From NCBI GenBank assembly GCA_001784175.1, contig MFPR01000040.1, positions 44,955 through 108,954 of the forward strand: a stretch of 64,000 bases of DNA, given 5' to 3'. Position numbers and translations under genes: made by a program. How positions within the stretch are numbered: the stretch's first letter is position 1; the number at the start of each line of letters is the position of its first letter. The notes below the pieces were generated by a model. The model was not told where the DNA came from. It searched no databases and saw only the letters and a program-made list of their open reading frames with translations. The stretch comes from Candidatus Lindowbacteria bacterium RIFCSPLOWO2_12_FULL_62_27. Lineage in GTDB: Bacteria > Lindowbacteria > 2-12-FULL-62-27. This document shows positions 1 to 64,000 of this stretch, one piece after another.

Positions 1-252
1 AAGACCGTCGCCGTCACCGAACTGCCGACGCACTTCGGCCCGGTTTCATACAAAATTGAATCCCGTGAGCAGTCGATCGAAGTCCGCGTGGACGGCCAAC
101 TGACAGGGGCCGACACCATCGTGTTCGCGTCGCCGCCGGCCGGGAAAGACATCGCCGCCGTCCTCGTGGACGATCAACCCTACGCCGGCTGGCGCTCCGG
201 CGAGATCGTTCTACCGCAACTTCCGGCCAAGATCGTCTTTCAACTCAAGTAG
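1..252 (+). CDS. 3' end of an upstream gene (partial, last 83 codons); product unknown
   Basis: Frame 1 is open from the window edge to TAG at 250-252 (..TELPTHFGPVSYKIESREQSIEVRVDGQLTGADTIVFASPPAGKDIAAVLVDD..). It converges on the GH94 gene with a 13-nt tail-to-tail overlap. It is too short to assign a family. Confidence 0.4.
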   Translation, partial: KTVAVTELPTHFGPVSYKIESREQSIEVRVDGQLTGADTIVFASPPAGKDIAAVLVDDQPYAGWRSGEIVLPQLPAKIVFQLK

Positions 253-3200
253 ACGCGGACGGCGTGGGATCGCCGGTCGTTCGTCAGCGGCACCCGCCCG
301 TCGTTCACGGGCCGGCCGTCCAGAAGAATCTTTGCGGCTGCCCGACGGCCACGGATCGTATTGCTCACCTCGATCCGGTACACCGTATCGCGGTACCGGT
401 ACGTCATCGAGTACCCCGGCCAGTCGGCGGGAACGCAGGGATCGACGGTGAAGGACTTGCCTTGAAGCTTCAGCCCCAGCAGCCACTCGATACCGATGCG
501 GTACATCCAGCCGGCCGAGCCCGTGTACCACGTCCATCCGCCGCGGCCGGTGTACGGCTCGACGCCGTACACGTCGGCGGCCATGACGTAAGGCTCGACT
601 TTGTAGCGCTCGACGGCCGCCGGCGATCCGGCGTGCCGGACGGGATTGATGAGATTGAATAGGGATACGGCGCGGGCGCGGTCCTTGAGCATGGCGTATG
701 CGAGGATCACCCAGGTGGAGGCATGCGAATACTGGCCGCCGTTCTCGCGCACGCCCGCGACGTATCCTTTGATATAGCCGGGATCCAGTTTGGATCGATC
801 GAAGGGCGGAGTCAAAAGAAGGATGAGCCCGCTCTTGCGGCGAATCAGATGCCGGTCCAGCGCCTTCATCGCGCGCCGCGCGCGCGCGCGGTCGGCCGCG
901 CCGGAAATCACGGCCCAGGATTGCGCGAGGGAGTCGATCCGGCACTCGTCATTGCGCGCCGCGCCCAGCGGCGTGCCGTCGTCCATGTAGGCGCGCCGGT
1001 ACCAGCCGCCGTCCCAGGCGTGGCGTTCGATCGAGCCGGCGATATCCCCGGCGGTCCGGCGAAACTCTTGCGCGCGACGGCCGTCGCCAAGCGATTCGCA
1101 CACGCGCGAGAACCGGTTCAGCACGTCGATCAGAAACCAGCCCAGCCACACGCTCTCTCCCTTGCCCCGGTGGCCCACCCGGTTCATGCCGTCGTTCCAG
1201 TCGCAGGAACCGATGAGCGGCAGACCGTGCCGGCCGAGGCGGACGCCTTTCCGGATCGATTTCAGACAATGCTCGTAGAGCGTGCCCCGCCGGGCGGAGA
1301 TTCTCGGAATGAAACAGCATTCCTGCTCGTGCTTCGGTACCGGTTTGCCTTCAACATAGGGAATTTTTTCGTTCAGCACGGAGTGATCGCCCGTCGCGGC
1401 GATGTAGTCGGAGACGACGTACGGCAAAAACAACAGATCGTCGGAACACCGCGTGCGTGGCCCCATCCCAAACGGCGGATGCCACCAGTGCTGCACGTCC
1501 CCCTCGACGAATTGCCGCGCGGCGGACCGCAGGATGTGTTCGCGAACGAGATGGGGCGCTGAATAAACGAGCGCGCGGGCGTCCTGAAGCTGATCGCGAA
1601 ACCCGAACGCGCCGCCGGATTGATAGAACGCCGACCGCGACCAGATCCTGCACGACAGGGTCTGGTACAGGAGCCAGCGGTTGAGCATGAGGTCGAGCGC
1701 ACGGTCCGGCGTGCGGACCTGCACGGCGCCGAGGACGCGGTCCCAGTGTTCCCGGGCCGCCGCGAGCGCCCGGTCGGCCGCGCCGTGTTTCCTGTATTTC
1801 CGGGCGACGGCCCGCGCCTCCCGCGCATCGCGTCCTTGGCCGAGGAGAAACACGATTTCGCGGCTTTGATTCGGCGCGAGGTCGAACACGACTTGGAGGG
1901 CGGCGCAGGGATCCTGAGGAATCCCCCTCTCCTCCTGAGGATTTCCCCTCTCCCCCCTTGGGGGGAGAGGGTTGGGGTGAGGGGGCTGGAAGGCCGCCGG
2001 CGAGCGCAGGACGCCCTGCGGCCCCAGAAACTCGGCGCGGCTGCAGGTGCCGGCGCGGGGAAACGCGGCGGCGCAGTCGAGAAACGCGACGCGCCCGGGA
2101 AACGGGCCGGCCTTTCGATTCCGCGCCATCAATATGCCGGTCCGGCGGTCCTGCCAGGACTCGACGTGCGGATGGGTTTCGGGGCGCGTCACGCCCAGGA
2201 CCCACTCGGCGTAGAGCGTAGCGGACACTTTTCGATATCGACCCGAACGGTTTTTCAAAACAAGCCTGTATATTTTGACCGGATCATTCATCGGGCAATA
2301 CAGGGACAGCCGCTGGTCCATGCCGTGGCTCGAATGCTCGAACACGGAGTATCCCTGGCCGTGGCGGATCACGTACGGCGCGCCGTCCCGGATCGGCGAG
2401 CAGGTCGTTGTCCAAACCTCGCCGGTTTCCTCGTCGCGCAGATACAGAACTTCACCGGGTGGATCGCTGACCGGATCGTTCGACCACGGCGTCAGCTTGT
2501 TCTCCCGGCTGTTCTCCGACCACGTGTATCCGGCGCCGGACTCGGAAACCTGGAACCCGAACCGCGGATTGGACACCACGTTCACCCACGGCGCCGGCGT
2601 CGTGCGGCCTTTCTCCAGCACGATGATGTATTCGCGGCCGTCGGCGCTGAACCCGCCGAGACCGTTGTATTCGACCAGCGTTTTTTTGTCCCACCCTCTC
2701 CCCCGTGTGTTCCCCCCTCTCCCCCGTAAGGGGGAGAGGGTTGGGGTGAGGGGGCTTTGAACCGGTCCCGGACTGAAATTCTCGAACGGCGCGCGATTCT
2801 TAGGAATGCGGCCGAACACGCGCGCGACCGCATCCGGATTGTGATATCGAGAAATCATTTCTAGCGCGCGCCGTCGGTCGGGCGCGGCGCCGGTGATGAA
2901 GCTCACGCGCGCCTCCGCGCCGGCCGGGATCCGAAGGATCGTCCGGAGACTCAGAATCGGATCGAGCACAGCGCCGGTCGATCCGCTCATCCGAAAGCCT
3001 TTCTCCATCGCCGCCGGATGATCGACCGTCCGGCCGCGGCCGATGAAGCGCGCGCGGTCGGTTTCGTACTGGACCCGGCCGGGCGGTTTCCCGTTTGGCC
3101 CGACGAGCGTATGAAACATCCAGATGGTTTTTTCATTTGCCGACCGGGGCCGGCGAAACGCCAGAATCGCGCTTGCGCGTTTGTCAAATTGCGTCTGGAC

Positions 3201-3656
3201 AAACAGATTGCTGAACGCCGGATGGGACAGATCCGCCGAGGCCGGCGCCAGAACCGCCTCCAGGTAGCTGGTCAGCTCGATGTCGCGAGATTCATCGGAA
3301 AGATTGCTGATCGTGACCCGCCTGATTTCCGCGCGTTCATTCGGTGTAACGACGATTTCCGTCCGCAACTCCATGAACGGATACGAACTCACATACTCGG
3401 ATTTGTCCGAAGAGAACCTGTATCGAAAAATCCCGGAAGCGGCCCGGACCGGCAGAAACGCCGCCGACACGACGGCGTTCGTCATCCTATCCCGCGCGTA
3501 AATAAACGGCCCCCACCCGTCCGTCGTCGGGTCATCCCGCCAGCGCGTCAGGTCCAGAGTCTGGCCGTGGATCGAGCAGAAGCTTTTCCCGCCGCCACCG
3601 TTCGTCAGAAGAACGGAATAGAAGCCGTTAGAAAGAATGCAGCTTTCCTTCCGCAT
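240..3656 (-). CDS. GH94-family glycoside phosphorylase (cellobiose/cellodextrin/chitobiose/1,2-beta-oligoglucan phosphorylase family), long form with extra N-terminal domains
   Basis: 1138-aa ORF. It carries GH94-type motifs: GLGGFSADGREYIIVL at the start of the N-terminal domain, FGFRDQLQDARAL and GDVQHWWHPP in the catalytic (alpha/alpha)6 region. It carries two in-frame insertions of the GGGAGAGG hairpin element (..SPLRGRGGNTRGRG.. and ..PPRGERGNPQEERG..). Confidence 0.8.
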   Translation of the reverse strand: MRKESCILSNGFYSVLLTNGGGGKSFCSIHGQTLDLTRWRDDPTTDGWGPFIYARDRMTNAVVSAAFLPVRAASGIFRYRFSSDKSEYVSSYPFMELRTEIVVTPNERAEIRRVTISNLSDESRDIELTSYLEAVLAPASADLSHPAFSNLFVQTQFDKRASAILAFRRPRSANEKTIWMFHTLVGPNGKPPGRVQYETDRARFIGRGRTVDHPAAMEKGFRMSGSTGAVLDPILSLRTILRIPAGAEARVSFITGAAPDRRRALEMISRYHNPDAVARVFGRIPKNRAPFENFSPGPVQSPLTPTLSPLRGRGGNTRGRGWDKKTLVEYNGLGGFSADGREYIIVLEKGRTTPAPWVNVVSNPRFGFQVSESGAGYTWSENSRENKLTPWSNDPVSDPPGEVLYLRDEETGEVWTTTCSPIRDGAPYVIRHGQGYSVFEHSSHGMDQRLSLYCPMNDPVKIYRLVLKNRSGRYRKVSATLYAEWVLGVTRPETHPHVESWQDRRTGILMARNRKAGPFPGRVAFLDCAAAFPRAGTCSRAEFLGPQGVLRSPAAFQPPHPNPLPPRGERGNPQEERGIPQDPCAALQVVFDLAPNQSREIVFLLGQGRDAREARAVARKYRKHGAADRALAAAREHWDRVLGAVQVRTPDRALDLMLNRWLLYQTLSCRIWSRSAFYQSGGAFGFRDQLQDARALVYSAPHLVREHILRSAARQFVEGDVQHWWHPPFGMGPRTRCSDDLLFLPYVVSDYIAATGDHSVLNEKIPYVEGKPVPKHEQECCFIPRISARRGTLYEHCLKSIRKGVRLGRHGLPLIGSCDWNDGMNRVGHRGKGESVWLGWFLIDVLNRFSRVCESLGDGRRAQEFRRTAGDIAGSIERHAWDGGWYRRAYMDDGTPLGAARNDECRIDSLAQSWAVISGAADRARARRAMKALDRHLIRRKSGLILLLTPPFDRSKLDPGYIKGYVAGVRENGGQYSHASTWVILAYAMLKDRARAVSLFNLINPVRHAGSPAAVERYKVEPYVMAADVYGVEPYTGRGGWTWYTGSAGWMYRIGIEWLLGLKLQGKSFTVDPCVPADWPGYSMTYRYRDTVYRIEVSNTIRGRRAAAKILLDGRPVNDGRVPLTNDRRSHAVRVYLS
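1946..1987. repeat. GGGAGAGG-family palindromic element (12-bp stem CCCTCTCCCCCC/GGGGGGAGAGGG plus GTTGGGGTGAGGGGGCT tail), in frame inside the GH94 CDS
   Basis: A stem-loop is directly readable. The same composite element recurs at 2692-2756 and 14437-14543. A second mini-palindrome TCCTCCTGAGGA lies 5' to it. Confidence 0.85.
2692..2756. repeat. GGGAGAGG-family palindromic element (half copy plus a full hairpin CCCTCTCCCCC gtaa GGGGGAGAGGG plus GTTGGGGTGAGGGGGCT), in frame inside the GH94 CDS
   Basis: Same orientation and same tail as the copy at 1946-1987. Confidence 0.85.
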
Positions 3657-6626: not shown

Positions 6627-7637
6627 ATGCGCGGTCTTGCGGGACGGTTGGCGGGTTGTCTTCTTGCATCCATCGGGGTTCTCTCGTTCCCGCCCTCTCT
6701 GGCCCGCGCCGACACGCTGACCATCGCGCTCGTCAAGCTTGGCGACGTGTCCGGCTATCGCGGGGCCTGGCGGATCGACCGGCAGATCACGCGGCTTTTG
6801 TCCGAAGCGCTTCTCAGCCTGAACGGCGTGTCCCTCGCGCCGGCCTCGGACGTGTCGGAGGCGGCGCGGCAAACGATCGGCATGCCGGACGAGTCCCTTG
6901 ATCCGAAAAAACTTCTGATGATCGGCCGCGCGGTCGGCGCGGACCTGGCGGTGGGCGGGACGGTCGATAAACTGTCTCTCGAGGGCCAGGGCGTCGTCAG
7001 CTACCGGGCCGGCGGGTATGAGCGGTTCGTGGGCGAGGTGGACCTGACCCTGACGGTGATCGAGACGCGCGGCGGTTCAGCGCTTGTCAACAAGGAAAAG
7101 ATATCGATCTCCCTCGCCGACGACGATGTCGGCATCGCGATCCTGCAGGGACCCGGCAACCGGCCGACCGAGGAAACATTGTACAAAATCTGGAACGCGC
7201 CCGTCGAATCCGACCTCGTCCAGGGATCGATCATCGGCCGCGCAATGGCGCAGGCGGCGATGGAGGCGTCCTCCCGCGTCGCTCGCGCCATCTCCGGCGT
7301 GCCCGCCGGCCGGGAGGGCCGCGTGGTCCGCGTGCGCGGGCGGGACATCTATATCAGCCTGGGGTCGGAGGACGATGTGCGCGAGGGCGACGTCGTCATG
7401 ATCTGGGAGAACGTGGAGGCGGTCCGCGACCCGAAAACCTCCGTGATGCTGGGGTTCACCCGCGCGTCGGAGGGCGCCGAAGCCGAGGTCCGGGAAATCC
7501 GCGGCCGGAAACTCTCGATTTGCCGGACGGCGGAAGACCAGGAATTCCGCGAGGGCGACACGGTCCGCTTCCTCGGCGGGCGGCGCGCCGGCAAATGGGC
7601 GGGCGCGCGGCGCCGGCCTGTCCAGGAAACGGAATGA
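6627..7637 (+). CDS. hypothetical secreted/periplasmic protein (possible CsgG/LpoB-like fold; uncertain)
   Basis: ATG at 6627, with a G-rich Shine-Dalgarno-like stretch 9 nt upstream. Signal peptide ..LSFPPSLARA|DT. 336 aa, with no recognisable catalytic motif. Confidence 0.5.
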   Translation: MRGLAGRLAGCLLASIGVLSFPPSLARADTLTIALVKLGDVSGYRGAWRIDRQITRLLSEALLSLNGVSLAPASDVSEAARQTIGMPDESLDPKKLLMIGRAVGADLAVGGTVDKLSLEGQGVVSYRAGGYERFVGEVDLTLTVIETRGGSALVNKEKISISLADDDVGIAILQGPGNRPTEETLYKIWNAPVESDLVQGSIIGRAMAQAAMEASSRVARAISGVPAGREGRVVRVRGRDIYISLGSEDDVREGDVVMIWENVEAVRDPKTSVMLGFTRASEGAEAEVREIRGRKLSICRTAEDQEFREGDTVRFLGGRRAGKWAGARRRPVQETE

Positions 7638-52900: not shown

Positions 52901-54009
52901 ATTTCCCGAGCCTCCGGAAAGCCGCGGATTTCATCATTCAGATGCGGAATCAGCGAAAGACCGACGAATACAAAAACGGCGGGCCCGAAAAGCGGATGCT
53001 GTACGGGCTGGTGCCGGAATCGATCAGCCACGAAGGTTATTCGGCCAAGCCGGCCCATTCGCACTGGGACAATTTCTTTTCGCTGAAGGGCCTGAAGGAC
53101 GCCGCGACGATCTGCGAGATTCTCGGGGAATCCGACATGGCCGCGAGCTACCGGCGGGAGGTCGACGATTACCGGGCGTGCCTGTACGACTCGATCCGCC
53201 GATCGATGGAATTTTTCAAGACCGATTTCATTCCGGGCGCGGCCGATCTCGGAGACTTTGACGCGACGTCGACGTCGATCGGTGTTTTCCCCTGCGGCGA
53301 GCTTGGCCACATTCCGCAGGAGGCGTTGATACGCACATTCGACAAATACTACGCCGATCTCGAAAAGCGCCTGATCCCGGGAAACAACTGGGGCGAGGCC
53401 TACACGCCGTATGAAATCCGAAGCTGCCGGACGTTCATGATCATGGGGCAGAAGGATCGCGCGGCCGTCATGTTCGACTTTTTCTTCAACGACTGCCGCC
53501 CGCGCGCGTGGAACCACTGGGCCGAGGTCGTCTGGCGCCTTCCGGAGACGCCGCGGTTCATCGGCGACATGCCGCACACGTGGATCGGGTCGGACTACAT
53601 GAACACGGTCCGGAGCATGTTCGTGTATGAGCAGGAGGAGGACCGCTCATTGATTTTGGGCGCCGGGATTTTCGAGGATTGGCTGGACGGCGGGGAGGAA
53701 GTCGGCATCGAACGGGCGCCGACGTACTGGGGATCGGTGAACTTCTCCATGAAGCGCGCCGGCGATCAGACGCTCCTCGTGCGGGTCTGGGGGGACGCTG
53801 CGCCGCCAGGGAAGATCTACGTCCGCCCGCCGCTCAAGGCGCCGATCCGGTCGGTGAAGATCGACCAAACGCCGGCTGGTGAGGTGGCGTATGAGCCGCC
53901 GCGTACGGATTCAAAGGATTGTGCGTCGTGTCCGAAGGGAAGCGGGACGTGGGCGTCAGCCGGGATCCGGGTGGATCAACTGCCGGCGGATATCCAGATC
54001 AATTATTAA
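49978..54009 (+). CDS. secreted protein with three N-terminal F5/8 type C domains and a C-terminal six-hairpin (alpha/alpha)6 glycosidase-like domain (GH15-like W-x-R-D motif)
   Basis: The GTG at 49978 overlaps the upstream stop (GTGA). Three discoidin repeats (..RWSSKFEDKQWLEIDLG.., ..RWSSLFEDGQWLELDLG.., ..AWSSGPSDSAWIMCDLG..). ..SYLRSWIRDGAMTSSAIL.. motif in the C-terminal barrel. Confidence 0.7.
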   Translation: MIAFLRSACIGILIWWSCVSECVHAQVTATASSEDNAELAADRAVDGNVQTRWSSKFEDKQWLEIDLGEARDISGLYIFWEAAYAKEYDVQVSTDRADWSTVHSTRDGRGGTDKLFFSGRPVRYVKIDCLKRGTDWGNSIYEVQFRSAEPAAAGGAGGMRLLEDFESTDGWAEIKSQGAEFRLSTERGPEDKALGLNFEFPSPLGYVVAGKDVDLSLPEDYKLSFLVKGEGPPNTIEFKLMDEAGNTYWKKFEEFEFPPDWKEISVRKKQVVFAWGPSGGGSIRDVRRIEFGVSCGQGGKGRLLIDKLSITDVSASKTRFSPSVTASTSEKDEFSAARAVDGDRGTRWSSLFEDGQWLELDLGEVREFVGLTIHWEAAHAKEYDVSISTDRESWTRVYTTDASEGGVADLYFKKRTARYIRIDCRKRATGWGNSIWEVELKGPEEEVRLSASSSDDLAENALDGDLTTAWSSGPSDSAWIMCDLGRPRDIGAVFISWSEDFARSYDVYFSRDLAQWDRRFSSRRGNGGRDRLVFKDLEARYVMIHGQEGAGGRGIGVREIEVKGSEYSGDRNTFYEIAAEEAPRGFYPKYFSKQQSYWTVVGVSEDKEEALINEEGAFEVGREQFSVEPFVYVNDRLITWADVTASQSLEKDYLPIPSVQWTHPEVGLTVQLFAHGPPGGSSMYAGYRVSNPTEERLQGKLFLAIRPFQVNPPWQTLNQKGGVAIISSIEYGGGAVSVNGGKKVIPLVRPAGFGAVSSASGDVTDYLQNGRVPPEGSVTDGDALASGALEFPFDLGAGESAWVYLAVPFHDRMPAGIGDAGPAASPNMEVDRARELYEKRLAETAGWWDDRLSRVTFKVPEKAQKFVNALKSNLAYIFINRDGYRIQPGSRSYLRSWIRDGAMTSSAILRMGNIQEVREYLSWYAPNLFEDGRVPCVVDDRGADGTPENDSNGEFIYGFLQYYYFTQDKAFLREHFPSLRKAADFIIQMRNQRKTDEYKNGGPEKRMLYGLVPESISHEGYSAKPAHSHWDNFFSLKGLKDAATICEILGESDMAASYRREVDDYRACLYDSIRRSMEFFKTDFIPGAADLGDFDATSTSIGVFPCGELGHIPQEALIRTFDKYYADLEKRLIPGNNWGEAYTPYEIRSCRTFMIMGQKDRAAVMFDFFFNDCRPRAWNHWAEVVWRLPETPRFIGDMPHTWIGSDYMNTVRSMFVYEQEEDRSLILGAGIFEDWLDGGEEVGIERAPTYWGSVNFSMKRAGDQTLLVRVWGDAAPPGKIYVRPPLKAPIRSVKIDQTPAGEVAYEPPRTDSKDCASCPKGSGTWASAGIRVDQLPADIQINY

Positions 54010-56560: not shown

Positions 56561-58396
56561 ATGGAAGGGTGGAAAGGAGCCGGGATATGGCTTCCCGCAG
56601 CCTTTGGCGTGCTCCTCGGAAGTCTGCCGGCGCTCGCGCTGGACATTCATGACGGCTGGGGATTTCAGACCGGAGACAGGAATGAATGGGCGTCGCCGGC
56701 GTTTGACGATTCGGCATGGCGGAAAATCCGGGGCGGCCGGTCGTGGGAGGATCAGGGACATGCCGGATATGACGGCGTGGCCTGGTATCGGAAATGGATC
56801 AGCATTCCGAAGGAATGGTCCGGCCAGGACTTGATTCTGGAACTGGGTCCGATCGATGACGCCGACGTCACGTACGTCAACGGGCGAATCGTCGGCTCCT
56901 TCGGAGGATTCCCTCCTGCCTTCCGAAGCGCCTGGACAGCGGCGCGTGTCTATCGGATTCGGGCCGACCATGTACGGCCCGGCCGGCGGAACCTCATCGC
57001 CATCCGAGTGTACGACGGCGGGGGCGGCGGCGGTCTGCATGGATGGCCATATCTCATCAGTCCCGATTCCGAATATCAGCAGAAACGAAAGTTGGCGGAC
57101 CGGCCTCACCCGTCGCTGATAATTCCTTCGAATGTTCAATCCATACTGGAACAATCCGAACCTGAACTGAAAGGCGCCGATCTGGACGATGATCGTTCGT
57201 TTGTCATCCGCCGCGCGGTCGCCGCCATTCGCGCGGCGACGGTCCGGGAAGGCGCCGCGGCCGGACAGATTCGCGCCAGCCTGCCGCCCGGCGAATACCG
57301 GGACACGGCATGGGCGCGCGACATGGGCTACGCCCTGTTGGGCCTTTTGGATGCGGCGAGTTTGGGCGCGCAGGGCGTGCTTGACGACGTCCGGCGAGGA
57401 CTGGATTTCTTCATGCGGGCCGAAGCCGGCACGTACAAACAGTACGTCTGGAACGGTCTGGACCGGGGGGTCGGCAAGCCGTATCGCATTTCGGTCTGTC
57501 GCTATTCCGCCGGTGGTCGCGAGTATTCGGACATGGATGCGTCTCGTGGCCCGAACATCGAGCTGGACGGATTCGGTCTGGCGCTCAGCGTGTTTGAACG
57601 ATACGTCGAACAATCGGGGGATCGGACGTTTTTGCGCAAGCACTGGCCTGTGATTTCCAAGGAAATCGCTGACGTGTTGATCCATACGACGGATCAGGCA
57701 ACGGGATTGATCCGGCCCGAATCCGGAATCTGGGAGGTTCATCTGCCCGGCATGCGTTTTCTGCACACAAATGTGCTGGCTGCCGCCGGGCTTTTTTCCG
57801 CCGCGCGGATGGCGGCCGCGCTGAATGACGGGGCCTCCCGGGAGAAATACCAGCGCGCGGCCGAGTTGTTGGCGGAATCCATTCGCTCGCGGCTGGTTGA
57901 ACCCAACACGGGCGTCCTCGCGGGAAATCTGGAACATTTGAATGAAGGCCGGGCGCTGGAGGAATACGCGGGCTCGGCCGGCCCGGGCGTGGCGGACGCA
58001 ATCCAGTTTGAAGTTTTCGATACCGGCGACGCTGTGGTTCAGGCGTCGCTGGATCGCATCGCCGCCGAACTTCGGTGGGCCGGCGCCTACGCGCGTCTGG
58101 ACGGCGGCGGGACGGTAGAGGAATTTTCGTTTACGTCGTTGCGCCTGGCTGCGGCGTTCCTTCGGGCCGGCAGAAAAAAGGAGGGCGAGGCTCTCTTGAA
58201 CTGGGCGGAGCAGAACGCCCGCCAAAACCAGGGCTTGTTCGCTGAAGTCTACACGCGCGATGCGGGCGATTACGCCGGATCGTCGCCCTTGGTCGGGATG
58301 GGCGCCGGCGCCTATTTGACGGCCGTCGCGCAGCTTGTTCCGGGCGTGTCCTTCGGGCCAACCTCTGACCACGAAATTGAATTGATTGTGAAGTAA
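56561..58396 (+). CDS. secreted protein: N-terminal jelly-roll sugar-binding domain and a six-hairpin (alpha/alpha)6 glycosidase-like domain (GH15-like)
   Basis: Signal peptide. ..WRKIRGGRSWEDQGHAGYDGVAWYRKWISIP..ILELGPIDDADVTYVNG..IAIRVYDGGGGGG. ..YRDTAWARDMGYALLGL.. motif. Confidence 0.7.
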   Translation: MEGWKGAGIWLPAAFGVLLGSLPALALDIHDGWGFQTGDRNEWASPAFDDSAWRKIRGGRSWEDQGHAGYDGVAWYRKWISIPKEWSGQDLILELGPIDDADVTYVNGRIVGSFGGFPPAFRSAWTAARVYRIRADHVRPGRRNLIAIRVYDGGGGGGLHGWPYLISPDSEYQQKRKLADRPHPSLIIPSNVQSILEQSEPELKGADLDDDRSFVIRRAVAAIRAATVREGAAAGQIRASLPPGEYRDTAWARDMGYALLGLLDAASLGAQGVLDDVRRGLDFFMRAEAGTYKQYVWNGLDRGVGKPYRISVCRYSAGGREYSDMDASRGPNIELDGFGLALSVFERYVEQSGDRTFLRKHWPVISKEIADVLIHTTDQATGLIRPESGIWEVHLPGMRFLHTNVLAAAGLFSAARMAAALNDGASREKYQRAAELLAESIRSRLVEPNTGVLAGNLEHLNEGRALEEYAGSAGPGVADAIQFEVFDTGDAVVQASLDRIAAELRWAGAYARLDGGGTVEEFSFTSLRLAAAFLRAGRKKEGEALLNWAEQNARQNQGLFAEVYTRDAGDYAGSSPLVGMGAGAYLTAVAQLVPGVSFGPTSDHEIELIVK

Positions 58397-59097: not shown

Positions 59098-59541
59098 GGG
59101 TATCCTCCTTATAGTCAGATTGGTCAGATTGTCCTCGAGGACCAGGCATTTGTCAAGCGCAACCCCGGGTCCCTTTCGGGGCCCAGGCAGGGGGTTGGGG
59201 GGGCCTTTCCATTACCCACAATTTATCACCACGGAGGCACAGAGACACTGAGAATATAATTTTCGCATCTGCTCAGGCTGATTATGTGGGAATTTACCAC
59301 GAATAAGAGATGTTCGAAGTTTGAACCATAAAAAAATTCGTGTCCATTCGTGCTCAGCATTCGTGGAAATTGTTAATGTCCCCTCTATCGACCCGGTTAC
59401 ATAATGTAAGCGATTTCACTTGACAACCGGGTACCGACGTGGGACACTGTCGTGGTGGGTGGTCAGCGGGAATGCCTGCCAAAGAGACTTCTGCACAATT
59501 GAATCGCCGGATGGAAGGAAGGCTATTTTTTTACAGTGCGC

Positions 59542-59555
59542 AGGAAGCGCTTACA
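59542..59555. promoter_or_regulatory. cre-like operator AGGAAGCGCTTACA in the first (orphan) copy of a duplicated promoter/leader module
   Basis: Part of the module 59385-59600, which is paralogous to 59646-59815. Confidence 0.5.
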
Positions 59556-59785
59556 TCATTTTGGGGAGCAGGCTGTAGGTGTCATCTGGATCGGCAAAAC
59601 TCTTCACATGAAGGGTGCAATAACATGGATATATATCTGTATATAATTACAAAAGTATTTCCTTGACAAACCATATACCGACTAGGACAATCATGGGGTT
59701 AGGATAGTGGGACCGTGAGGGTCCGGCGTAATTTGGGGCGCTTGGAGAGAGGCAGGGGGTTGGTTGTTATTTTTACAGGCGTTGT

Positions 59786-59799
59786 TGGAAGCGCTTACA
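59786..59799. promoter_or_regulatory. cre-like operator TGGAAGCGCTTACA, 20 nt upstream of ATG 59819
   Basis: 13 of 14 matches to TGTAAGCGCTTACA. TTGACA -35-like box at 59663-59668. Confidence 0.55.
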
Positions 59800-59818: not shown

Positions 59819-62800
59819 ATGCCGAACGCGGGGTTGAACGGGAGGACCCGAACTGATTTGAGGATACTGGCAACGATGACGGTGGGGGTCTGCCCGTTTG
59901 TTCTGATGCTGCTGTGGGCGGTGGATGGCTGGGCGACGCCATTTCAGTATATGGGGTTCAACAATGGGACCGTGTATCGGGTGAATGTGGGGTCGACGTC
60001 GAATTACACCGACACCGGCGGGAACATCTGGTACGCGGACCGGGCGTACGACACGAACAGCACGGACGGGTTCGGGTATTCGGCGGGGAAGGGCGGGACG
60101 GCGGACACCGTGAGCGCGGACATCACGAGCACGACGCTGGATCCGCTGTATGCGTCGCACCGGTGGGGGGCCGAGATCGAGTACCGGTTTGACGTGCCGT
60201 CGGCGGGCTGGGACACGGGCGGGATTTACGAGGTGATGATCCGGATCATCGAGCCGTTTTATCAGGCCGGGGGCCAGCGGGTGTTCAACATCTATTTCAA
60301 CGACCTCAGCATCTCGGCGCGCGGGTATCTGATGTTTCAGAGCGTGGATCCGTATTCGTGGTCCGGCGCGCGGTACAAGGCGATGGACATCACGGTGCCG
60401 TATTTTCCGTGCAACGAAGGGACGCTTCGGATCACGTTCGTGCCGAACGGCGGGGACAACACGGCGCTGGTGTCGGCGATCCAGGTGCGGAAAGTGCCGT
60501 ACATCGTGGACAACCTGAATATGACGAACGAGCAGTTTCTGGACAGTTACGAGCGGAAGATATTCAACTGGTTTTACACGGAGGTGATCGACAATCAGTA
60601 TTATCTACCCCCGTCGGAAGGGGGCTATGACGTGCCATGGAACGAAGCCTTTACGAGCATTGCCTCGATCTCTCCTGCGATTGCCGCGTACGTGATCGGC
60701 CATTACCGGCAGTATCCGAAGCCGGGTACGACCCAGGCGTTCAGCTACAATGACGCGTACACGCGGGTGCTGGGCATTCTCAAAGGCGTGGGACAATTCG
60801 TCAAAGGCCCGAACGATCAGGACACGCCGGAGTGCACGGGCGGTCCACGGGCGTGTGATACGGTCTATTCGACGACCAGCATCTATTCGGATCCAAGTCT
60901 CTATAAGAATCATTACACACAGACCTATCATCACCACTATCACCGCGAGCCATGGTGGAAATTCGGCCATCCGTTTCCGGGCTTTGACAAGTGGCGGTCG
61001 ATCGACGACAACGGTGATCTGATGATCGGCATGATGCTTGCCGCCGAATATTTCAAAAACACTGAAATCGAGCTTAGAGCCCGCCAGCTTCTGGAGAGCA
61101 TCAACTGGGGGAATTACTGGTTTGATCCGTGCTACTGCGAGCGGATGATGGCGTTTCTCGAATCGGCCGGTCAGCCCAGAGACGACCGCCGAACTGCGAA
61201 TGACATCAACGCTTGGAACAATGCGTACTGGCAAGGCAATTACGGCGCCGCGATCTACTGGCACCAGTGGCAAAATCTCTGGTACGACGGCCGCAACACG
61301 CAGACCACGCAGGGCACTCAGGTAGGCCGAAATGATTTCAACGCGGATCAACAGCTCACTTTGGAGTTGCGCAAGCGTCAACAGGATATGTGGAAATACT
61401 TGCCCGATTGGTATAACACTTACGACTGGGATGCATGGGGCATAACGGCCGCTTCGCAGACGAACAGTTGTTACGGCGTAAACGGCTGGATACTTCCCAC
61501 AAACAACTCAACTGACGCGGCGGCGATGAATGGCCAGGCCGGGTTTTGCGGAACGAACGAGTCAAGGAGCTACGGAGGCAACCTCAATCCCTTCGCCACC
61601 GTCGCGTCTCTGCCGTTTGCTCCGACAGAGGTTCTCAACGCAATGCGTCACATGTTCTGGCGTTTTGGTCCAACGTCTGAAGGAGGCTTGGGATATCCGC
61701 AATACATGGGAGGCCCCATCACCAGCACATACGGTTTCGCTCAGACGTACAACATTGGCGATCAGCCAGATGGTTCCCTTTGGTACAGGGCCACCGGCAA
61801 CGCCGGATTCGACAATGGCCCGCAGATCATGGCAATCGAAAATTACCGCACCGGCCTGATTTGGAATTACATGATGCAAAGCGACTACATGAAGCGCGCG
61901 ATGTGGCGGTTCAAGATGCAGGGCTTCAGCGATTCGCCGGCGCTGCCGATGAACACTGTCACCGGCATCCCCGGCGCCGTCCACGCGTCGAATTCGACCG
62001 CGTCGCCCACCGACTGGGACGGGTACGGGCCGCCGCAGTCGTCGGGCAAGGCGATGTACGCGTTCGATCTTGACAAGATGAAGCGGTGGCACGCGATGAA
62101 GGCGGACGCGGACACCGGAAACGTGACGCTGTCGGTGACGTTTCCGAACGGGAGCGAGCAGACGGTGGGGAGCGTGATTTTATGGTGGCATGACGAGTAC
62201 GCGACGGCCTACGACATTCGCGTCAAATCGACATCCGACACGTGGCACACCTATTATACGACGACGAGCGGCGACGGCACGGTCGACCGTCTCACCTTTT
62301 CGCCACCGATCGCCAACGCGCGCGCGGTCGAAATCGTGATGAAGACGCGCGTGAACGCAACGCTCGGTTATTCGATCTGGGAGGTCGAAATCTACCCGGA
62401 CGTGCTGGTGGCGACGGGCGCGCTGGTGGACGATTTTGAGGTGACGAGCGGCAAGAACCGTCTGGGCGGATCGATGGATCACTGGCCGTCCGGCACGACC
62501 TACGCGAACCACGCGTACGCGAGCGACAATTACTACGCCGGCAGCAAGGGCATGTGGATCTGGTATGACGTTCGCGCAGGGAATCCCTCCGGGGAGGCAG
62601 GATACTGGACGCAGGTCGCCAATTACGACGCGCGCAACTACAAATATCTGTCGCTTTGGGCGAAGGGATCGACCGGGACGGAAAATTTCCGTGTGCGCCT
62701 CAAGACGGAGCTGACGCCCGGCAATTTTGTCGAGGACGCCGGCGACACCACGTTCACCGCGTCGACGACGTGGACGCAGGTCATCATTCCGCTGGTCGTG

Positions 62801-64000
62801 TACGACGCGTCGAATTTGGCGGACTTGGACAACATCAACGTGTATTTTCACAACAGTTATGGCGGAAATCAAAACAGCCAGATCTGGATCGACGACGTGC
62901 GGTTCGTGCAGGAGGAGGACCTTCCGCCGCCGGCGCCGACGGGCGCGGCGTCGGCCGCGTCGGGCGGGGACAATCTGATCACGTGGACGGCGATCCCCTC
63001 GCAGTATCAGGCGAATCTGGCCGGCTACAACGTGTACCGGAAGAAATGGACCACGACCGACACGGCGACGAAACTCACGGCCGTGCCGTTTGCCGGCACG
63101 ACGTACAGCGACGCGTCGCTGCCTGCGGCCGACAGCACCGTGTGGGAGTATTACGTGACGGCGGTCAGTTCGAAGGGCCCGGAATCGGCGAAGAGCGGCA
63201 CCGTGACGGCCATCCAGGGCAACGTGGATTTGAATTACAGCGACAGCCGGACGACGAACGCCTTCGGGCAGAACGACCTTGGCGCCTGGGGCGGCGCGAT
63301 CAACACGTGGATCGACACGACGCAGAAAGACGGGTCGACCGGCAAATCGCGATACGTCAGCGCCGCGAACGGCGCCGGCGTATTTTCGTCCCTGCTGGAC
63401 GTGGGCGTGACGGCGGACGGCGTGGTGGCACTGACGTTCGACGCGAAGGGAGCATCGGGCGGCGAGACGTTTCTAGTGGGGTTCAAGGACGGCGACGGCG
63501 TGTCCCCGCTGGAGGTGCAGGTGTCCATCGCCACATACGGCGGCGCGCTGACGACGTCGTGGAAGAGATACTCGATCCCGCTGGACGATTTCACCGGGAT
63601 CAATTTTACGAAGCTCGACAACATTTCGTTCAGCCTCGCCGTCCCGTCGGCGAATTTTATGATCGACAACGCCGCGTTCAGCCCGTCGGACACGTCGACG
63701 GTGGTGATGGACCATTTCGACGACGGCATCACCGATTTCAATCCGGCGATCTCCGGCGGCGGCGAGTTCAGCTGGGGCGGCGCGGGCCGGAGCAAATCGC
63801 AGGGCGGCGCCCAGTTCTGGCGCTCGCCGCCGTACGGGCTGAATGTGAGCATCGTGTCCGGCGCGGGGCAGGGATTCGGCCAGTCGGTTCCGAGCTACAA
63901 CGTATCGACGACCAAGTACCTCAGCCTCTGGGTCCGGGGGAGCGACCACTTTCAGAACGAGGACGTGCTGATCGGACTCAAGAGCTACACGGGCCCGACG
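59819..64000 (+). CDS. large secreted glycoside hydrolase (5' part; runs off the window): malectin-like CBM, GH144-like (alpha/alpha)6 catalytic domain, discoidin-like domain, FN3 and several CBM-like modules
   Basis: Hand translation from ATG 59819 is open to the window end (1394 codons). Signal segment MTVGVCPFVLMLLWAVDGWA. Malectin-like ..VYRVNVGSTSNYTDTGGNIWYADRAYD... Catalytic motifs MTNEQFLDSYERKIFNWFYTE and IENYRTGLIWNYMMQ. ..GYSIWEVEIY.. FN3 (NLAGYNVYRKK..EYYVTAV). CBM-like modules (VVMDHFDDGITDF..). Confidence 0.75.
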   Translation, partial: MPNAGLNGRTRTDLRILATMTVGVCPFVLMLLWAVDGWATPFQYMGFNNGTVYRVNVGSTSNYTDTGGNIWYADRAYDTNSTDGFGYSAGKGGTADTVSADITSTTLDPLYASHRWGAEIEYRFDVPSAGWDTGGIYEVMIRIIEPFYQAGGQRVFNIYFNDLSISARGYLMFQSVDPYSWSGARYKAMDITVPYFPCNEGTLRITFVPNGGDNTALVSAIQVRKVPYIVDNLNMTNEQFLDSYERKIFNWFYTEVIDNQYYLPPSEGGYDVPWNEAFTSIASISPAIAAYVIGHYRQYPKPGTTQAFSYNDAYTRVLGILKGVGQFVKGPNDQDTPECTGGPRACDTVYSTTSIYSDPSLYKNHYTQTYHHHYHREPWWKFGHPFPGFDKWRSIDDNGDLMIGMMLAAEYFKNTEIELRARQLLESINWGNYWFDPCYCERMMAFLESAGQPRDDRRTANDINAWNNAYWQGNYGAAIYWHQWQNLWYDGRNTQTTQGTQVGRNDFNADQQLTLELRKRQQDMWKYLPDWYNTYDWDAWGITAASQTNSCYGVNGWILPTNNSTDAAAMNGQAGFCGTNESRSYGGNLNPFATVASLPFAPTEVLNAMRHMFWRFGPTSEGGLGYPQYMGGPITSTYGFAQTYNIGDQPDGSLWYRATGNAGFDNGPQIMAIENYRTGLIWNYMMQSDYMKRAMWRFKMQGFSDSPALPMNTVTGIPGAVHASNSTASPTDWDGYGPPQSSGKAMYAFDLDKMKRWHAMKADADTGNVTLSVTFPNGSEQTVGSVILWWHDEYATAYDIRVKSTSDTWHTYYTTTSGDGTVDRLTFSPPIANARAVEIVMKTRVNATLGYSIWEVEIYPDVLVATGALVDDFEVTSGKNRLGGSMDHWPSGTTYANHAYASDNYYAGSKGMWIWYDVRAGNPSGEAGYWTQVANYDARNYKYLSLWAKGSTGTENFRVRLKTELTPGNFVEDAGDTTFTASTTWTQVIIPLVVYDASNLADLDNINVYFHNSYGGNQNSQIWIDDVRFVQEEDLPPPAPTGAASAASGGDNLITWTAIPSQYQANLAGYNVYRKKWTTTDTATKLTAVPFAGTTYSDASLPAADSTVWEYYVTAVSSKGPESAKSGTVTAIQGNVDLNYSDSRTTNAFGQNDLGAWGGAINTWIDTTQKDGSTGKSRYVSAANGAGVFSSLLDVGVTADGVVALTFDAKGASGGETFLVGFKDGDGVSPLEVQVSIATYGGALTTSWKRYSIPLDDFTGINFTKLDNISFSLAVPSANFMIDNAAFSPSDTSTVVMDHFDDGITDFNPAISGGGEFSWGGAGRSKSQGGAQFWRSPPYGLNVSIVSGAGQGFGQSVPSYNVSTTKYLSLWVRGSDHFQNEDVLIGLKSYTGPT

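What the first reader, a model, noticed from the sequence alone, without database searches (positions are those of the whole stretch)
240..64000. PUL-like megalocus built around a GH94 phosphorylase, five GH144-like paralogs, GH3, GH2, GH5 and three six-hairpin enzymes: candidate beta-1,2-glucan/beta-glucan catabolic system without SusC/SusD
The long GH94 (1138 aa, like the large 1,2-beta-oligoglucan phosphorylases) sits with five genes sharing the glycoamylase-like catalytic domain found in endo-beta-1,2-glucanases, and with a PA14-type GH3 beta-glucosidase. This mirrors known beta-1,2-glucan utilisation gene sets. The added GH5, GH2 and GH15-like enzymes suggest broader beta-glucan or mixed-linkage substrates. 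About fifteen discoidin, three malectin-like and several CBM-like modules are appended. Regulation looks layered (LacI-type operators plus a sigma-54 enhancer-binding protein), and outer-membrane traffic seems to use T9SS/PorV-like components instead of SusCD.
Basis: partly seen in the sequence, partly recalled or inferred. Interest (0 to 1): 0.6.

Follow-up and report, generated by a model that had tools for sequence, protein, structure and literature searches.

The report
Beta-1,2-glucan-type sugar-harvesting gene cluster
This is a real, very large operon-like cluster of secreted sugar-cutting enzymes from an uncultured groundwater bacterium (Candidatus Lindowbacteria); it most likely harvests bacterial beta-1,2-glucans, and it may use a previously undescribed outer-membrane gene cassette in place of the well-known SusC/SusD import system.

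Summary
The window holds a 1138-aa GH94, five PF10091/GH144-like genes, a PA14-type GH3, GH2, GH5, three six-hairpin proteins, about 15 discoidin and 3 malectin modules, a LacI regulator, a sigma-54 activator, and no SusC/SusD.

- **GH94.** It is not close to the characterised 1,2-beta-oligoglucan phosphorylases (38 bits). [quoted passage not shown] It lacks the Rossmann-like insert and keeps the catalytic Asp, so it still points to beta-1,2 linkages.
- **GH144-like genes.** G2, G3 and G4 keep all residues that define the family. G1 belongs to a small subfamily with Asp-Gly at the acid site. G5 is divergent and is part of a protein of at least 6209 aa.
- **GH5.** It is a classic GH5_1 endo-beta-1,4-glucanase type, so the substrate range is probably wider than beta-1,2-glucan.
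- **T9SS.** None of the hydrolases carries a T9SS sorting domain.
- **New finding.** A five-gene outer-membrane cassette recurs next to GH144-like genes in three other metagenomic loci, one of them Elusimicrobiota. It comprises a small jelly-roll protein, a novel ~800-aa beta-barrel, a CBM-rich protein with a T9SS-type C-terminal domain, a PorV/PorQ-like barrel with a CBM insert, and one more protein.

All functions are inferred from sequence.

The parts
1..252 (+). 3' end of a 1194-aa secreted protein with two discoidin domains, apparently a paralog of the 49978-54009 family. The cluster continues about 6 kb upstream of the window.
240..3656 (-). Stand-alone GH94 glycoside phosphorylase, 1138 aa, with no signal peptide (cytoplasmic). 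[quoted passage not shown]
   Evidence: PMC10901819
3747..6506 (+). G1: discoidin domain plus GH144-like domain. It belongs to a variant subfamily with Asp-Gly at the general-acid site and Trp in place of the clan Phe. It is secreted.
6627..7637 (+). Secreted 336-aa protein with no family assignment. Homologs occupy the last position of the outer-membrane cassette in L088 and L089.
7634..10780 (+). Six-hairpin protein 1: weak MGH1/GH116/trehalase/GH78-like barrel plus a GH2_N-like jelly-roll. No close PDB relative for the barrel.
10802..13894 (+). GH2 enzyme with two extra C-terminal jelly-roll modules. Specificity unknown.
13891..14415 (+). Small 174-aa protein consisting of one discoidin domain, with a lipoprotein-like signal peptide. 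Its start overlaps the GH2 stop (ATGA).
14421..17867 (+). G2: a weakly discoidin-like N-terminal module, a GH144-like domain with all defining residues kept, and a jelly-roll. The likely start is 14562.
17871..18407 (+). Small GH2_N-like jelly-roll protein, copy A. This family is the first gene of the conserved outer-membrane cassette.
19468..20001 (+). Small jelly-roll protein, copy B, 74% identical to copy A.
19973..22426 (+). Novel ~800-aa outer-membrane beta-barrel with a C-terminal ...YFQW and no Pfam or NCBIfam family. Candidate oligosaccharide channel.
22420..25014 (+). 864-aa protein with CBM30-like modules, an fn3 domain and a T9SS type-A (PorZ/PorU-like) C-terminal domain. Candidate surface glycan-binding protein.
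25011..26456 (+). PorV/PorQ-family outer-membrane barrel, split by an inserted CBM30-like module.
26453..27676 (+). Secreted protein with weak PorV/DUF5723 similarity, conserved after the PorV-like gene in L087.
27750..28799 (+). LacI-family repressor.
28824..30356 (+). Sigma-54 enhancer-binding protein with an N-terminal MshEN domain.
   Evidence: the same LacI-EBP pair lies beside another stand-alone GH94
31071..31462 (+). G3 control region. It contains a 165-nt palindrome with 3+3 CACGAAG repeats (enhancer-like), then a -24/-12-like GGCAT-N5-TTGCA at 31426-31440 flanked by LacI-type operators at 31406 and 31449.
31477..34107 (+). G3: malectin domain, GH144-like domain (defining residues kept) and 2 discoidin domains.
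36941..39316 (+). GH5 subfamily-1-type endo-beta-1,4-glucanase domain plus 3 discoidin modules.
39313..41937 (+). G4: malectin domain, GH144-like domain (defining residues kept) and 2 discoidin domains. It is 62% identical to G3, and its start overlaps the GH5 stop (GTGA).
44667..48329 (+). 1220-aa surface protein with a discoidin domain, Ig-like repeats and an OmpL47-type domain. LacI-type operators lie at 44535 and 44671.
49978..54009 (+). 1343-aa protein with 3 discoidin domains followed by beta-sandwich + (alpha/alpha)6 + beta-sandwich. It belongs to a large uncharacterised family (more than 7500 homologs). The nearest folds are GH94, GH15, GH116 and GH65, at TM about 0.55.
54009..56552 (+). 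GH3 beta-glucosidase with a PA14 insert and a signal peptide (periplasmic or secreted).
56561..58396 (+). Six-hairpin protein 2: jelly-roll plus a GH15-like domain (35 bits against a Pfam cut-off of 22).
59336..59799 (+). G5 control region, with LacI-type operators at 59405, 59542 and 59786 and a CACGAAT repeat at 59336.
59819..64000 (+). G5: N-terminus of a protein of at least 6209 aa, with a malectin domain, a divergent GH144-like domain (Glu and Asp kept, Phe replaced by Tyr) and CBM30-like repeats.

Best explanation
This is a polysaccharide-utilisation cluster of Candidatus Lindowbacteria, centred on bacterial beta-1,2-glucans (cyclic or linear) with side activities on other beta-glucans.

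Proposed flow; every step is inferred from homology, and none has been shown biochemically:
1. Secreted, CBM-decorated GH144-type endo-beta-1,2-glucanases (G2, G3, G4 and the giant G5; G1 is a variant) open and fragment the glucan outside the cell. GH5_1, GH2, GH15-like and two unknown six-hairpin enzymes deal with other linkages or decorations.
2. A conserved outer-membrane cassette captures and admits the oligosaccharides. In this cassette a CBM-rich protein is held at the surface through its T9SS-type C-terminal domain by a PorV/PorQ-like barrel. This is analogous to PorZ-PorQ and PorU-PorV in the T9SS attachment complex (from memory, not tested). A novel ~800-aa barrel serves as the channel. 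Together they play the role that SusD and SusC play in Bacteroidota.
3. The signal-peptide-bearing PA14-type GH3 trims oligomers in the periplasm.
4. An inner-membrane transporter, not encoded in the window, imports sophoro-oligosaccharides. The Elusimicrobiota counterpart locus has a sugar ABC importer.
5. The cytoplasmic stand-alone GH94 phosphorolyses them from the non-reducing end to glucose-1-phosphate.

Expression is repressed by the LacI protein at WGNAAGCGCTTWCA operators. At least at G3, it is activated by the MshEN-sigma-54 activator.
For: **GH144-like genes.**
- G1-G4 hit only GH144 structures. The catalytic domains are 33-38% identical to XcSGL, as close as the two characterised beta-1,2-glucanases are to each other (32%).
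- G2-G4 keep the general-acid Glu, the base-candidate acid, the clan Phe and the Tyr (residues from PMC12102758).

**GH94.**
- It scores 910 bits to the Cgs phosphorylase region, which trims beta-1,2-glucan chains from the non-reducing end (PMC10901819, PMC11842490).
- The catalytic Asp is kept, and there is no signal peptide.
- Another stand-alone GH94 (P0003) sits beside the same LacI + MshEN-EBP pair.

**Conserved cassette.** The outer-membrane cassette recurs next to GH144-like genes in three other loci, L087, L088 and L089. LacI accompanies it in two of them, a PA14-type GH3 in one, and discoidin/six-hairpin proteins in all three.

**Barrel.** The AF2 model of the 817-aa protein matches only outer-membrane barrels.

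**Regulation and operon structure.** The operators are enriched 8 against 0.56 expected. ATGA/GTGA start-stop overlaps at six junctions indicate operons.

**Substrate availability.** Cgs genes are widespread: at least 599 related stretches across many phyla. The substrate is therefore plausible in sediment.
Against: - No enzyme was assayed.
- Identity to characterised GH144 enzymes is only 27-38%.
- G1 and G5 depart from the defining residues.
- The GH94 is closer to cellobiose and chitobiose phosphorylases than to the proven SOGPs, and no stand-alone Cgs-type GH94 has been characterised.
- The GH5 is a textbook GH5_1 beta-1,4-endoglucanase type (306 bits to Acidothermus E1).
- The GH3 groups with general beta-glucosidases rather than the sophorose-preferring Lin1840 or BT_3567.
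- No inner-membrane transporter lies in the window.
- None of the hydrolases has a T9SS domain, so their export route is unknown.
- The channel role of the barrel and the anchoring role of the PorV-like protein rest on fold class, gene order and analogy alone.
- The sigma-54 promoter is a single unenriched match.
Confidence: 0.55

Rival explanations
1. This is a generalist beta-glucan or necromass-degrading CAZyme island with no single target. The GH144-like, GH5_1, GH3, GH2, GH15-like and unknown six-hairpin enzymes each attack different polymers (cellulose, mixed-linkage glucan, other exopolysaccharides). Beta-1,2-glucan is only one of several substrates.
For: - GH5_1 endo-beta-1,4-glucanase type.
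- General PA14-type GH3 beta-glucosidase.
- GH2 of unknown specificity.
- Three unrelated six-hairpin families.
- CBM32, malectin and CBM30-like modules have broad ligand ranges.
- The LacI operators lie upstream of G3, GH5, the 44667 gene and G5, but not upstream of GH94/G1 or G2. This suggests more than one regulon.
Against: - Five paralogs of one family whose characterised members are beta-1,2-specific, plus a Cgs-type GH94, is far more than a generalist would need.
- The compact counterpart locus L089 keeps only GH144-like, GH3-PA14 and discoidin proteins with the cassette.
Confidence: 0.25
2. The GH144-like paralogs and the GH94 act on a different, still unknown glycan, for example a heteropolysaccharide containing glucose. 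The family names mislead because only a handful of GH144 and Cgs-type enzymes have ever been assayed.
For: - Identity to assayed GH144 enzymes is only 27-38%.
- The G1 subfamily has lost the invariant Glu.
- The nearest PDB relatives of the GH94 after Cgs are chitobiose and cellobiose phosphorylases.
- Discoidin/CBM32 modules often bind galactose-type sugars (from memory).
Against: - G2-G4 keep every residue that contacts or cleaves sophoro-oligosaccharides in XcSGL.
- Every GH144 and SGL-clan family assayed so far is beta-1,2-specific (PMC12102758).
- About 55% identity to the Cgs phosphorylase region is high for a change of linkage specificity.
Confidence: 0.15
3. The cluster makes or remodels the cell's own beta-1,2-glucan rather than consuming foreign glycan. 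The GH94 would work in the synthetic direction and the GH144-like proteins would act as glucanotransferases.
For: - Phosphorylases are reversible.
- PF10091 also matches the Cgs cyclase (GH189) domain, as shown by the architectures.
Against: - There is no GT84 or other glycosyltransferase, and no membrane synthase, in the window or in the 10-kb flanks.
- The paralogs score to GH144 and not to Cgs cyclase domains.
- Nearly all proteins are secreted and loaded with CBMs, and a LacI repressor is typical of catabolic loci.
Confidence: 0.03

Closest known systems
Beta-1,2-glucan degradation gene sets of Listeria innocua (SOGP Lin1839 + GH3 Lin1840 + ABC importer) and of Chitinophaga, Parabacteroides and Ignavibacterium (GH144 SGL clusters)
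   Same: The logic is the same: an endo-GH144 glucanase, a GH3 beta-glucosidase and a cytoplasmic GH94 phosphorylase, under a sugar-responsive repressor (PMC12102758, PMC11842490, PMC8861115). A close relative locus (L087) even carries a GH35, as the Ignavibacterium cluster does.
   Different: - The phosphorylase is of the Cgs type, not the SOGP type (38 bits to 5H3Z).
- There are five heavily CBM-decorated GH144-like paralogs, including one protein of at least 6209 aa.
- There is no SusC/SusD and no ABC importer in the window.
- A novel outer-membrane cassette is present.
- The host is a candidate phylum.
[quoted passage not shown]
   Same: About 55% identity over GP1 and GP2-3, with the catalytic Asp (D2528 equivalent) kept.
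   Different: - The protein is stand-alone at 1138 aa.
- It has no transmembrane, GT84 or cyclase domains, and the ~160-aa Rossmann-like insert is absent.
- It sits in a catabolic context.
Bacteroidota polysaccharide utilisation loci (SusC/SusD type)
   Same: Co-regulated, co-localised secreted glycoside hydrolases, surface glycan-binding proteins and outer-membrane barrel proteins.
   Different: There is no TonB-dependent SusC and no SusD (no hits). The barrel is of an unassigned family, and the anchoring appears to be PorV/PorQ-based.
T9SS attachment-complex pairs PorZ-PorQ and PorU-PorV, and T9SS-linked multimodular cellulase systems (e.g. 'Ca. Paraporphyromonas polyenzymogenes', PMC5831590)
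   Same: A protein with a PorZ/PorU-like type-A C-terminal domain is encoded directly before a PorV/PorQ-family barrel. This pairing is conserved in L087 and L089; in L088 the barrel is conserved but no C-terminal domain was detected.
   Different: - The hydrolases themselves lack T9SS domains.
- No core T9SS genes lie in the window.
- The PorV-like barrel carries an inserted CBM30-like module.
- The lineages (Lindowbacteria, Elusimicrobiota) are, to my knowledge, not T9SS phyla.

Membership tests
GH144 (endo-beta-1,2-glucanase family, clan GH-S) | Full-length similarity of the catalytic domain to characterised members (CpSGL 5GZH, XcSGL 8XUL, BDI_3064 5Z06). | tested here: met
   G1-G4 reach E 1e-32 to 1e-57 over about 400 aa, at 26-38% identity. 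G5 is only weak, at 27 bits.
GH144 (endo-beta-1,2-glucanase family, clan GH-S) | General-acid Glu (CpSGL E211 / XcSGL E239). | tested here: met
   Glu is present in G2, G3, G4 and G5. It is NOT met in G1, which has Asp-Gly there. That motif is conserved in its orthologs (L089, P0275-P0278). The alignment register is ambiguous by one residue.
GH144 (endo-beta-1,2-glucanase family, clan GH-S) | Acidic base candidate (CpSGL E142), clan Phe (XcSGL F286) and subsite -3 Tyr (Y367). | tested here: met
   Asp is present in all five. Phe is kept in G2-G4, replaced by Trp in G1 and by Tyr in G5. Tyr is kept in all five in the larger alignment, although G5's placement is uncertain and it did not align to Tyr.
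GH144 (endo-beta-1,2-glucanase family, clan GH-S) | Hydrolysis specific to beta-1,2-glucan. | not testable with these tools
   Needs enzyme assays.
[quoted passage not shown] | Groups by sequence with the characterised SOGPs. | tested here: not met
   38 bits to LpSOGP 5H3Z, against 910 bits to Cgs and 322 bits to chitobiose phosphorylase.
GH94 (family level) | GH94 supersandwich and catalytic domains, and the catalytic Asp in DWND. | tested here: met
   PF06165 at 477 bits and PF17167 at 411 bits. CDWNDGMN aligns with the Cgs D2528 motif (PMC10901819).
[quoted passage not shown] | Transmembrane helices, a GT84 glycosyltransferase and a GH189 cyclase domain N-terminal to the GH94 region, plus the RFL insert. 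| tested here: not met
   The protein starts at the GP1 equivalent. It has 48 residues where Cgs proteins have 202-223. Full-length Cgs homologs are about 2900 aa.
SusC/SusD-type PUL | An adjacent SusC-like TonB-dependent transporter and a SusD-like lipoprotein. | tested here: not met
   No Plug, TonB_dep_Rec or SusD hit on any ORF. The barrel's best fold matches are SlpA, MtrB, FimD and LptD rather than TBDTs.
T9SS cargo / components | A type-A C-terminal sorting domain on the secreted enzymes. | tested here: not met
   No hydrolase has it. Only the 864-aa CBM protein does: TIGR04183 at 25.6 bits (cut-off 23) and the PorZ C-terminal domain at 53.7 bits.
T9SS cargo / components | PorV/PorQ-family outer-membrane barrel. 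| tested here: met
   NF033709 at 126 bits (cut-off 90). Orthologs score 114-148 bits.
LacI-family regulon | A LacI HTH with a sugar-binding domain, and palindromic operators at target promoters. | tested here: met
   Pfam LacI and Peripla_BP_3. There are 8 palindromes against 0.56 expected, all at gene starts. Binding was not tested.
Sigma-54-dependent promoter | A -24 GG / -12 GC element with an upstream enhancer. | tested here: inconclusive
   One good match, GGCATACCCTTTGCA at 31426, with a repeat-rich palindrome 200-350 nt upstream. The motif is not enriched in the window.

The most novel reading that the evidence does not exclude
The five-gene cassette is a previously undescribed outer-membrane glycan capture-and-import machine. 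Its genes encode a small jelly-roll protein, a novel ~800-aa beta-barrel, a CBM-rich protein with a PorZ/PorU-like C-terminal domain, a PorV/PorQ-like barrel with an inserted CBM, and one further secreted protein. It would be a TonB-independent functional analogue of SusC/SusD used by non-Bacteroidota phyla (Lindowbacteria, Elusimicrobiota and others). The T9SS-style C-terminal domain / PorV interaction would have been co-opted as a permanent surface anchor. It would be coupled to a new class of stand-alone, Cgs-derived beta-1,2-glucan phosphorylase.
Probability: 0.3. Interest if true: 0.8.

Novelty: new variant of a known kind. Interest (0 to 1): 0.6.

Why it matters
- **Carbon cycling.** Beta-1,2-glucans are made by very many bacteria: Cgs homologs appear in at least 599 stretches across many phyla in one scan. 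Yet only a few degradation systems are known, all from cultured Firmicutes, Bacteroidota, Ignavibacteria, Xanthomonas and fungi. A complete, regulated system in a candidate phylum from aquifer sediment would show how this necromass carbon is recycled.
- **Enzyme targets.** The cluster offers several untested targets. These are a Cgs-derived stand-alone phosphorylase (potentially useful for beta-1,2-glucan synthesis), a GH144 subfamily without the canonical Glu, and a six-hairpin family with more than 7500 members and no known function.
- **Outer-membrane import.** The recurring outer-membrane cassette gives a concrete, testable candidate for how diderm bacteria outside Bacteroidota import oligosaccharides without SusC/SusD.

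Tried and rejected
- **GH94 as SOGP.** Rejected by score: 38 bits to 5H3Z.
- **GH94 as a fragment of a full Cgs gene or an assembly artefact.** Rejected. The identical 1138-aa protein is on 8 contigs. It starts at the GP1 equivalent, with a divergent G1 gene 90 bp away.
- **GH144-like domains as GH189 cyclase-type.** No score to the cyclase domains of two full-length Cgs proteins.
- **The 817-aa protein as a TonB-dependent transporter.** No Plug or TBDT family hit, and TBDTs are not the top fold matches.
- **T9SS domains on the hydrolases.** None found.
- **Sigma-54 promoters across the window.** Not enriched, with only one convincing site.
- **LacI operators in related loci.** One plausible site in L089 and nothing significant in L087 or in the upstream flank.
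- **Rfam and tRNA scans.** Nothing found.
- **Literature.** It holds nothing on Lindowbacteria carbohydrate metabolism.


Full report
**Source and layout**

The window is part of a metagenomic contig of 123-190 kb. The GH94 protein is identical to NCBI 'hypothetical protein A3G34_06550' of Candidatus Lindowbacteria bacterium RIFCSPLOWO2_12_FULL (Rifle aquifer).

The DNA is about 62% G+C. GC3 frame analysis singles out one long series of + strand genes from 3747 to the window end. On the - strand lie only the GH94 and a PIN/PhdYeFM toxin-antitoxin pair.

At six junctions the start codon overlaps the preceding stop (ATGA, GTGA or TAATG). This indicates operons with translational coupling. Gene calls from the same contig show three further points:
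- the cluster begins about 6 kb upstream of the window;
- several starts lie later than the longest ORF;
- the last gene (G5) encodes at least 6209 residues.

**Checking the observation**

| Item | Coordinates / count | Evidence |
|---|---|---|
| GH94 | 240-3656 (-) | |
| PF10091 (GH144-like) genes | five: G1-G5 | |
| PA14-type GH3 | 54009-56552 | |
| GH2 | 10802-13894 | |
| GH5 | 36941-39316 | |
| Malectin modules | 3 | |
| Discoidin modules | 12 by Pfam + 1 small stand-alone protein + 2 weak | |
| LacI repressor | 27750-28799 | |
| MshEN-sigma-54 activator | 28824-30356 | |

The three six-hairpin proteins are:
- 7634-10780, with weak hits to several (alpha/alpha)6 families;
- 56561-58396, GH15 above Pfam's threshold;
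- the C-terminal 777 residues of 49978-54009.

For the third I built a 35-sequence alignment. The AlphaFold2 model is confident (pLDDT 88.6, pTM 0.90) and shows beta-sandwich + (alpha/alpha)6 + beta-sandwich. Its nearest solved folds are GH94 phosphorylases, GH15, GH116 and GH65, all at TM about 0.55, so there is no close relative. This family has more than 7500 homologs, annotated only as 'discoidin domain-containing protein'.

No ORF hits SusC, SusD, Plug or TonB-dependent receptor models.

**The GH94**

| PDB match | Score |
|---|---|
| Cgs phosphorylase region | 910 bits, E 1.7e-272 |
| Chitobiose phosphorylase | 322 bits |
| Cellobiose phosphorylase | about 280 bits |
| LpSOGP (5H3Z), the structurally solved 1,2-beta-oligoglucan phosphorylase | 38 bits |

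Residues 3-279 align to the Cgs GP1 subdomain (1539-1810), and residues 328-1088 align to GP2-3 (2026-2775). The ~165-residue Rossmann-fold-like insert of Cgs is missing, and the catalytic Asp of DWND (D2528 in Cgs) is kept (PMC10901819).

Most genomic relatives are full-length Cgs proteins of about 2900 aa. Only two other complete stand-alone forms were found among the 120 hits listed, P0003 and P0069. All three lack the insert.

The Cgs phosphorylase region trims beta-1,2-glucan chains from the non-reducing end (PMC10901819, PMC11842490). The stand-alone enzyme has no signal peptide. It is therefore best read as a cytoplasmic beta-1,2-oligoglucan phosphorylase of a lineage distinct from the known SOGPs. 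That reading is an inference.

P0003 lies next to a LacI gene and a MshEN-sigma-54 activator gene, the same regulator pair as in the window. This ties the GH94 to the cluster even though it is transcribed divergently.

**The GH144-like paralogs**

The only PDB relatives are GH144 entries. The defining residues come from the 2025 family paper (PMC12102758): general acid CpSGL E211 / XcSGL E239, base candidate E142, clan Phe F286 and Tyr Y367. I located them in an alignment with sequences recovered from the PDB alignments.

| Paralog | General-acid site | Base candidate | Clan Phe (F286) | Tyr (Y367) |
|---|---|---|---|---|
| G2, G3, G4 | Glu | Asp | Phe | Tyr |
| G5 | Glu | Asp | Tyr | Tyr; did not align |
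| G1 | Asp-Gly | Asp | Trp | Tyr |

- G2, G3 and G4 are 34-38% identical to XcSGL. The two proven beta-1,2-glucanases are 32% identical to each other.
- G5 is otherwise very divergent: 27 bits to XcSGL.
- The G1 motif (Asp-Gly and Trp) is conserved in its ortholog in L089 (47% identity) and in the four nearest cluster representatives, after which identity drops to 39%. The register is uncertain by one residue. The Glu may therefore be replaced by Asp, or lost with a neighbouring Asp present.
- None of the paralogs scores to the GH189 cyclase domain of Cgs, although PF10091 also covers that domain.

**Other enzymes**

- **GH5.** The catalytic domain scores 306 bits to Acidothermus endocellulase E1 and about 257 bits to the Xanthomonas major endoglucanase. 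It is a GH5_1 endo-beta-1,4-glucanase type.
- **GH3.** It groups with BglB and KmBglI-type PA14 beta-glucosidases (568-476 bits). The sophoro-oligosaccharide-preferring Lin1840 and BT_3567 score only about 240 bits.

These results, together with the GH2, the GH15-like enzyme and two orphan six-hairpin enzymes, argue that the cluster is not restricted to pure beta-1,2-glucan.

**Outer-membrane components**

The gene order from 17871 to 27676 is:

| Coordinates | Product | Evidence |
|---|---|---|
| 17871-18407 and 19468-20001 | Two 74%-identical small GH2_N-like jelly-roll proteins, flanking a low-GC ORF | |
| 19973-22426 | 817-aa protein with no family, ending ...YFQW | |
| 22420-25014 | 864-aa protein with CBM30-like and fn3 modules and a T9SS type-A C-terminal domain (TIGR04183 25.6 bits, cut-off 23; PorZ C-terminal domain 53.7 bits) | |
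| 25011-26456 | PorV/PorQ-family barrel (126 bits, cut-off 90), split by a CBM30-like insert | |
| 26453-27676 | Further secreted protein | |

The 817-aa protein has only 34 detectable homologs. Its AlphaFold2 model (pLDDT 74, pTM 0.71) is a very large antiparallel barrel. Foldseek matches only outer-membrane barrels (SlpA, MtrB, FimD, LptD, then TBDTs and porins), all at low TM.

The same gene order recurs in the three other loci I could read:
- **L087**, a close relative at 46-72% identity. The cassette lies next to a G2 ortholog, a GH35-discoidin gene and a six-hairpin-discoidin gene.
- **L088**, an Elusimicrobiota MAG. The cassette lies next to a G2-type GH144-like gene, LacI, a sugar ABC importer and a six-hairpin-discoidin ortholog.
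- **L089**, in the order LacI, cassette, G1-type GH144-like gene, PA14-type GH3, discoidin protein.

A more distant barrel homolog from Latescibacteria has no such neighbours.

The cassette is therefore a conserved partner of GH144-like genes. I propose that the CBM-rich protein is held at the surface by the PorV/PorQ-like barrel through its C-terminal domain, as PorZ and PorU are held by PorQ and PorV (from memory, not tested). I further propose that the large barrel is the oligosaccharide channel.

None of the glycoside hydrolases carries a T9SS domain.

**Regulation**

The palindrome WGNAAGCGCTTWCA occurs eight times against 0.56 expected, and 0 of 100 shuffles reached eight. The sites are:
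- 31406 and 31449, upstream of G3;
- 36981, just inside the GH5 start;
- 44535 and 44671, at the 44667 gene;
- 59405, 59542 and 59786, upstream of G5.

Two of these sites lie in signal-peptide codons (K-A-L) and might be coincidental.

Between the two G3 operators lies GGCATACCCTTTGCA, a good -24/-12 element. A 165-nt palindrome with three CACGAAG repeats per arm lies 200-350 nt upstream of it, and a related repeat precedes G5. The sigma-54 motif itself is not enriched in the window, so this remains a single-site inference. No operator was found at the GH94/G1 divergent region or before G2.

**Comparison with known systems, and verdict**

The enzyme logic matches the beta-1,2-glucan pathways of Listeria, Chitinophaga, Parabacteroides and Ignavibacterium: endo-GH144, then GH3, then GH94 phosphorylase.

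The cluster differs from those systems in several ways:
- the lineage of the phosphorylase;
- the number and decoration of the GH144-like genes;
- the absence of SusC/SusD;
- the new outer-membrane cassette;
- the host phylum.

It is not a Cgs, not a SusC/SusD PUL and not a member of the SOGP clade. I rate it a new variant of a known kind. My confidence in the beta-1,2-glucan-centred reading is about 0.55. The main rival, at 0.25, is a generalist beta-glucan island.

All functional statements are inferences from homology, fold, conserved residues and conserved gene order. Nothing was or could be assayed here.

Noticed in passing
window 9531-9562(-), 12915-12946(-), 13904-13936(+), 15981-16021(-), 26463-26494(+), 31505-31537(+), 34117-34144(+), 47509-47541(-): A heptamer array, (GATTTTG) x about 4.6 (five of the eight copies are perfect), occurs at 8 sites where 0 are expected. 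The '+' copies always sit at codons ~4-14 of a gene, between the start codon and the signal-peptide core (e.g. MRRRFWILDFGFWI...). The '-' copies sit in inter-domain linkers of four large genes and are translated as ESKIQNPKSKIS. The arrays are absent from the related loci and from the flanks of the same contig. Possible explanations are slipped-strand phase variation, complementary RNA pairing within the polycistronic mRNA, or recombination sites. None of these was resolved.
   Followed up: partly
window 59819-64000 and L086 13259-21836: The fifth GH144-like gene encodes a giant protein of at least 6209 residues. The gene runs to the end of the 123-kb contig. It has malectin and GH144-like domains at the N-terminus and CBM30-like repeats further on.
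   Followed up: partly
window 25011-26456; L087 7832-9157; L088 15148-16641; L089 15045-16547: The PorV/PorQ-family barrel is interrupted by a CBM30-like module (the NCBIfam match is split into two stretches). This arrangement is conserved in all four loci.
   Followed up: partly
window 1947-1970, 2716-2739, about 14435, 22437-22460: GC-rich hairpin elements of the form CCTCTCCCCC-N4-GGGGGAGAGG occur 3 times against 0.01 expected. Two lie in frame inside the GH94 gene. One is in the linker that replaces the Cgs RFL insert. The other is in a loop insertion relative to Cgs, encoding ...PLPPRGERG.... Similar sequence gives the spurious 'IHLLSPRRG' N-termini of two long ORFs.
   Followed up: partly
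window 41974-44433 and 48530-49981; L083 9139-9672: Two secreted TlpA/ResA-type thiol-disulfide oxidoreductase fusions sit inside the glycan cluster. One is fused to a CBM48-like module and a ~500-aa unknown region, the other to a 5'-nucleotidase C-terminal domain. An AhpC/TSA gene also neighbours another stand-alone GH94 (P0069).
   Followed up: no
window 28824-30356; contig of P0003: The sigma-54 activator has an N-terminal MshEN domain, which from memory is a known c-di-GMP-binding module. The LacI + MshEN-EBP gene pair is conserved next to a stand-alone GH94 in an unrelated contig.
   Followed up: partly
window 58439-59097 (-): A PIN-domain toxin (136 aa) and a PhdYeFM antitoxin (83 aa) are inserted on the opposite strand between the GH15-like gene and the G5 control region.
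   Followed up: no
window 17871-20001: The small jelly-roll gene is duplicated (81% DNA identity) around a low-GC (0.51) ORF of 277 aa with no homolog family. Related loci have a single copy directly before the barrel gene.
   Followed up: partly
window 34104-36835: Two low-GC (about 0.52) genes of about 548 and 362 aa have signal peptides and no family hits. They lie between G3 and the GH5 gene, and the first overlaps the G3 stop (GTGA).
   Followed up: no
window 49978-54009; P0155-P0274: The discoidin + (alpha/alpha)6 family is very large (more than 7500 hits at E<=1e-10, about 50% identity across KSB1, Bacteroidota, Gemmatimonadota, Competibacter and others). It has no characterised member or close solved structure.
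   Followed up: partly
window 59420-59450 and 59664-59695: Two similar promoter-like elements (TTGACAA-N..-TACCGAC-N..-GGACA) lie upstream of G5, interleaved with the LacI-type operators.
   Followed up: no
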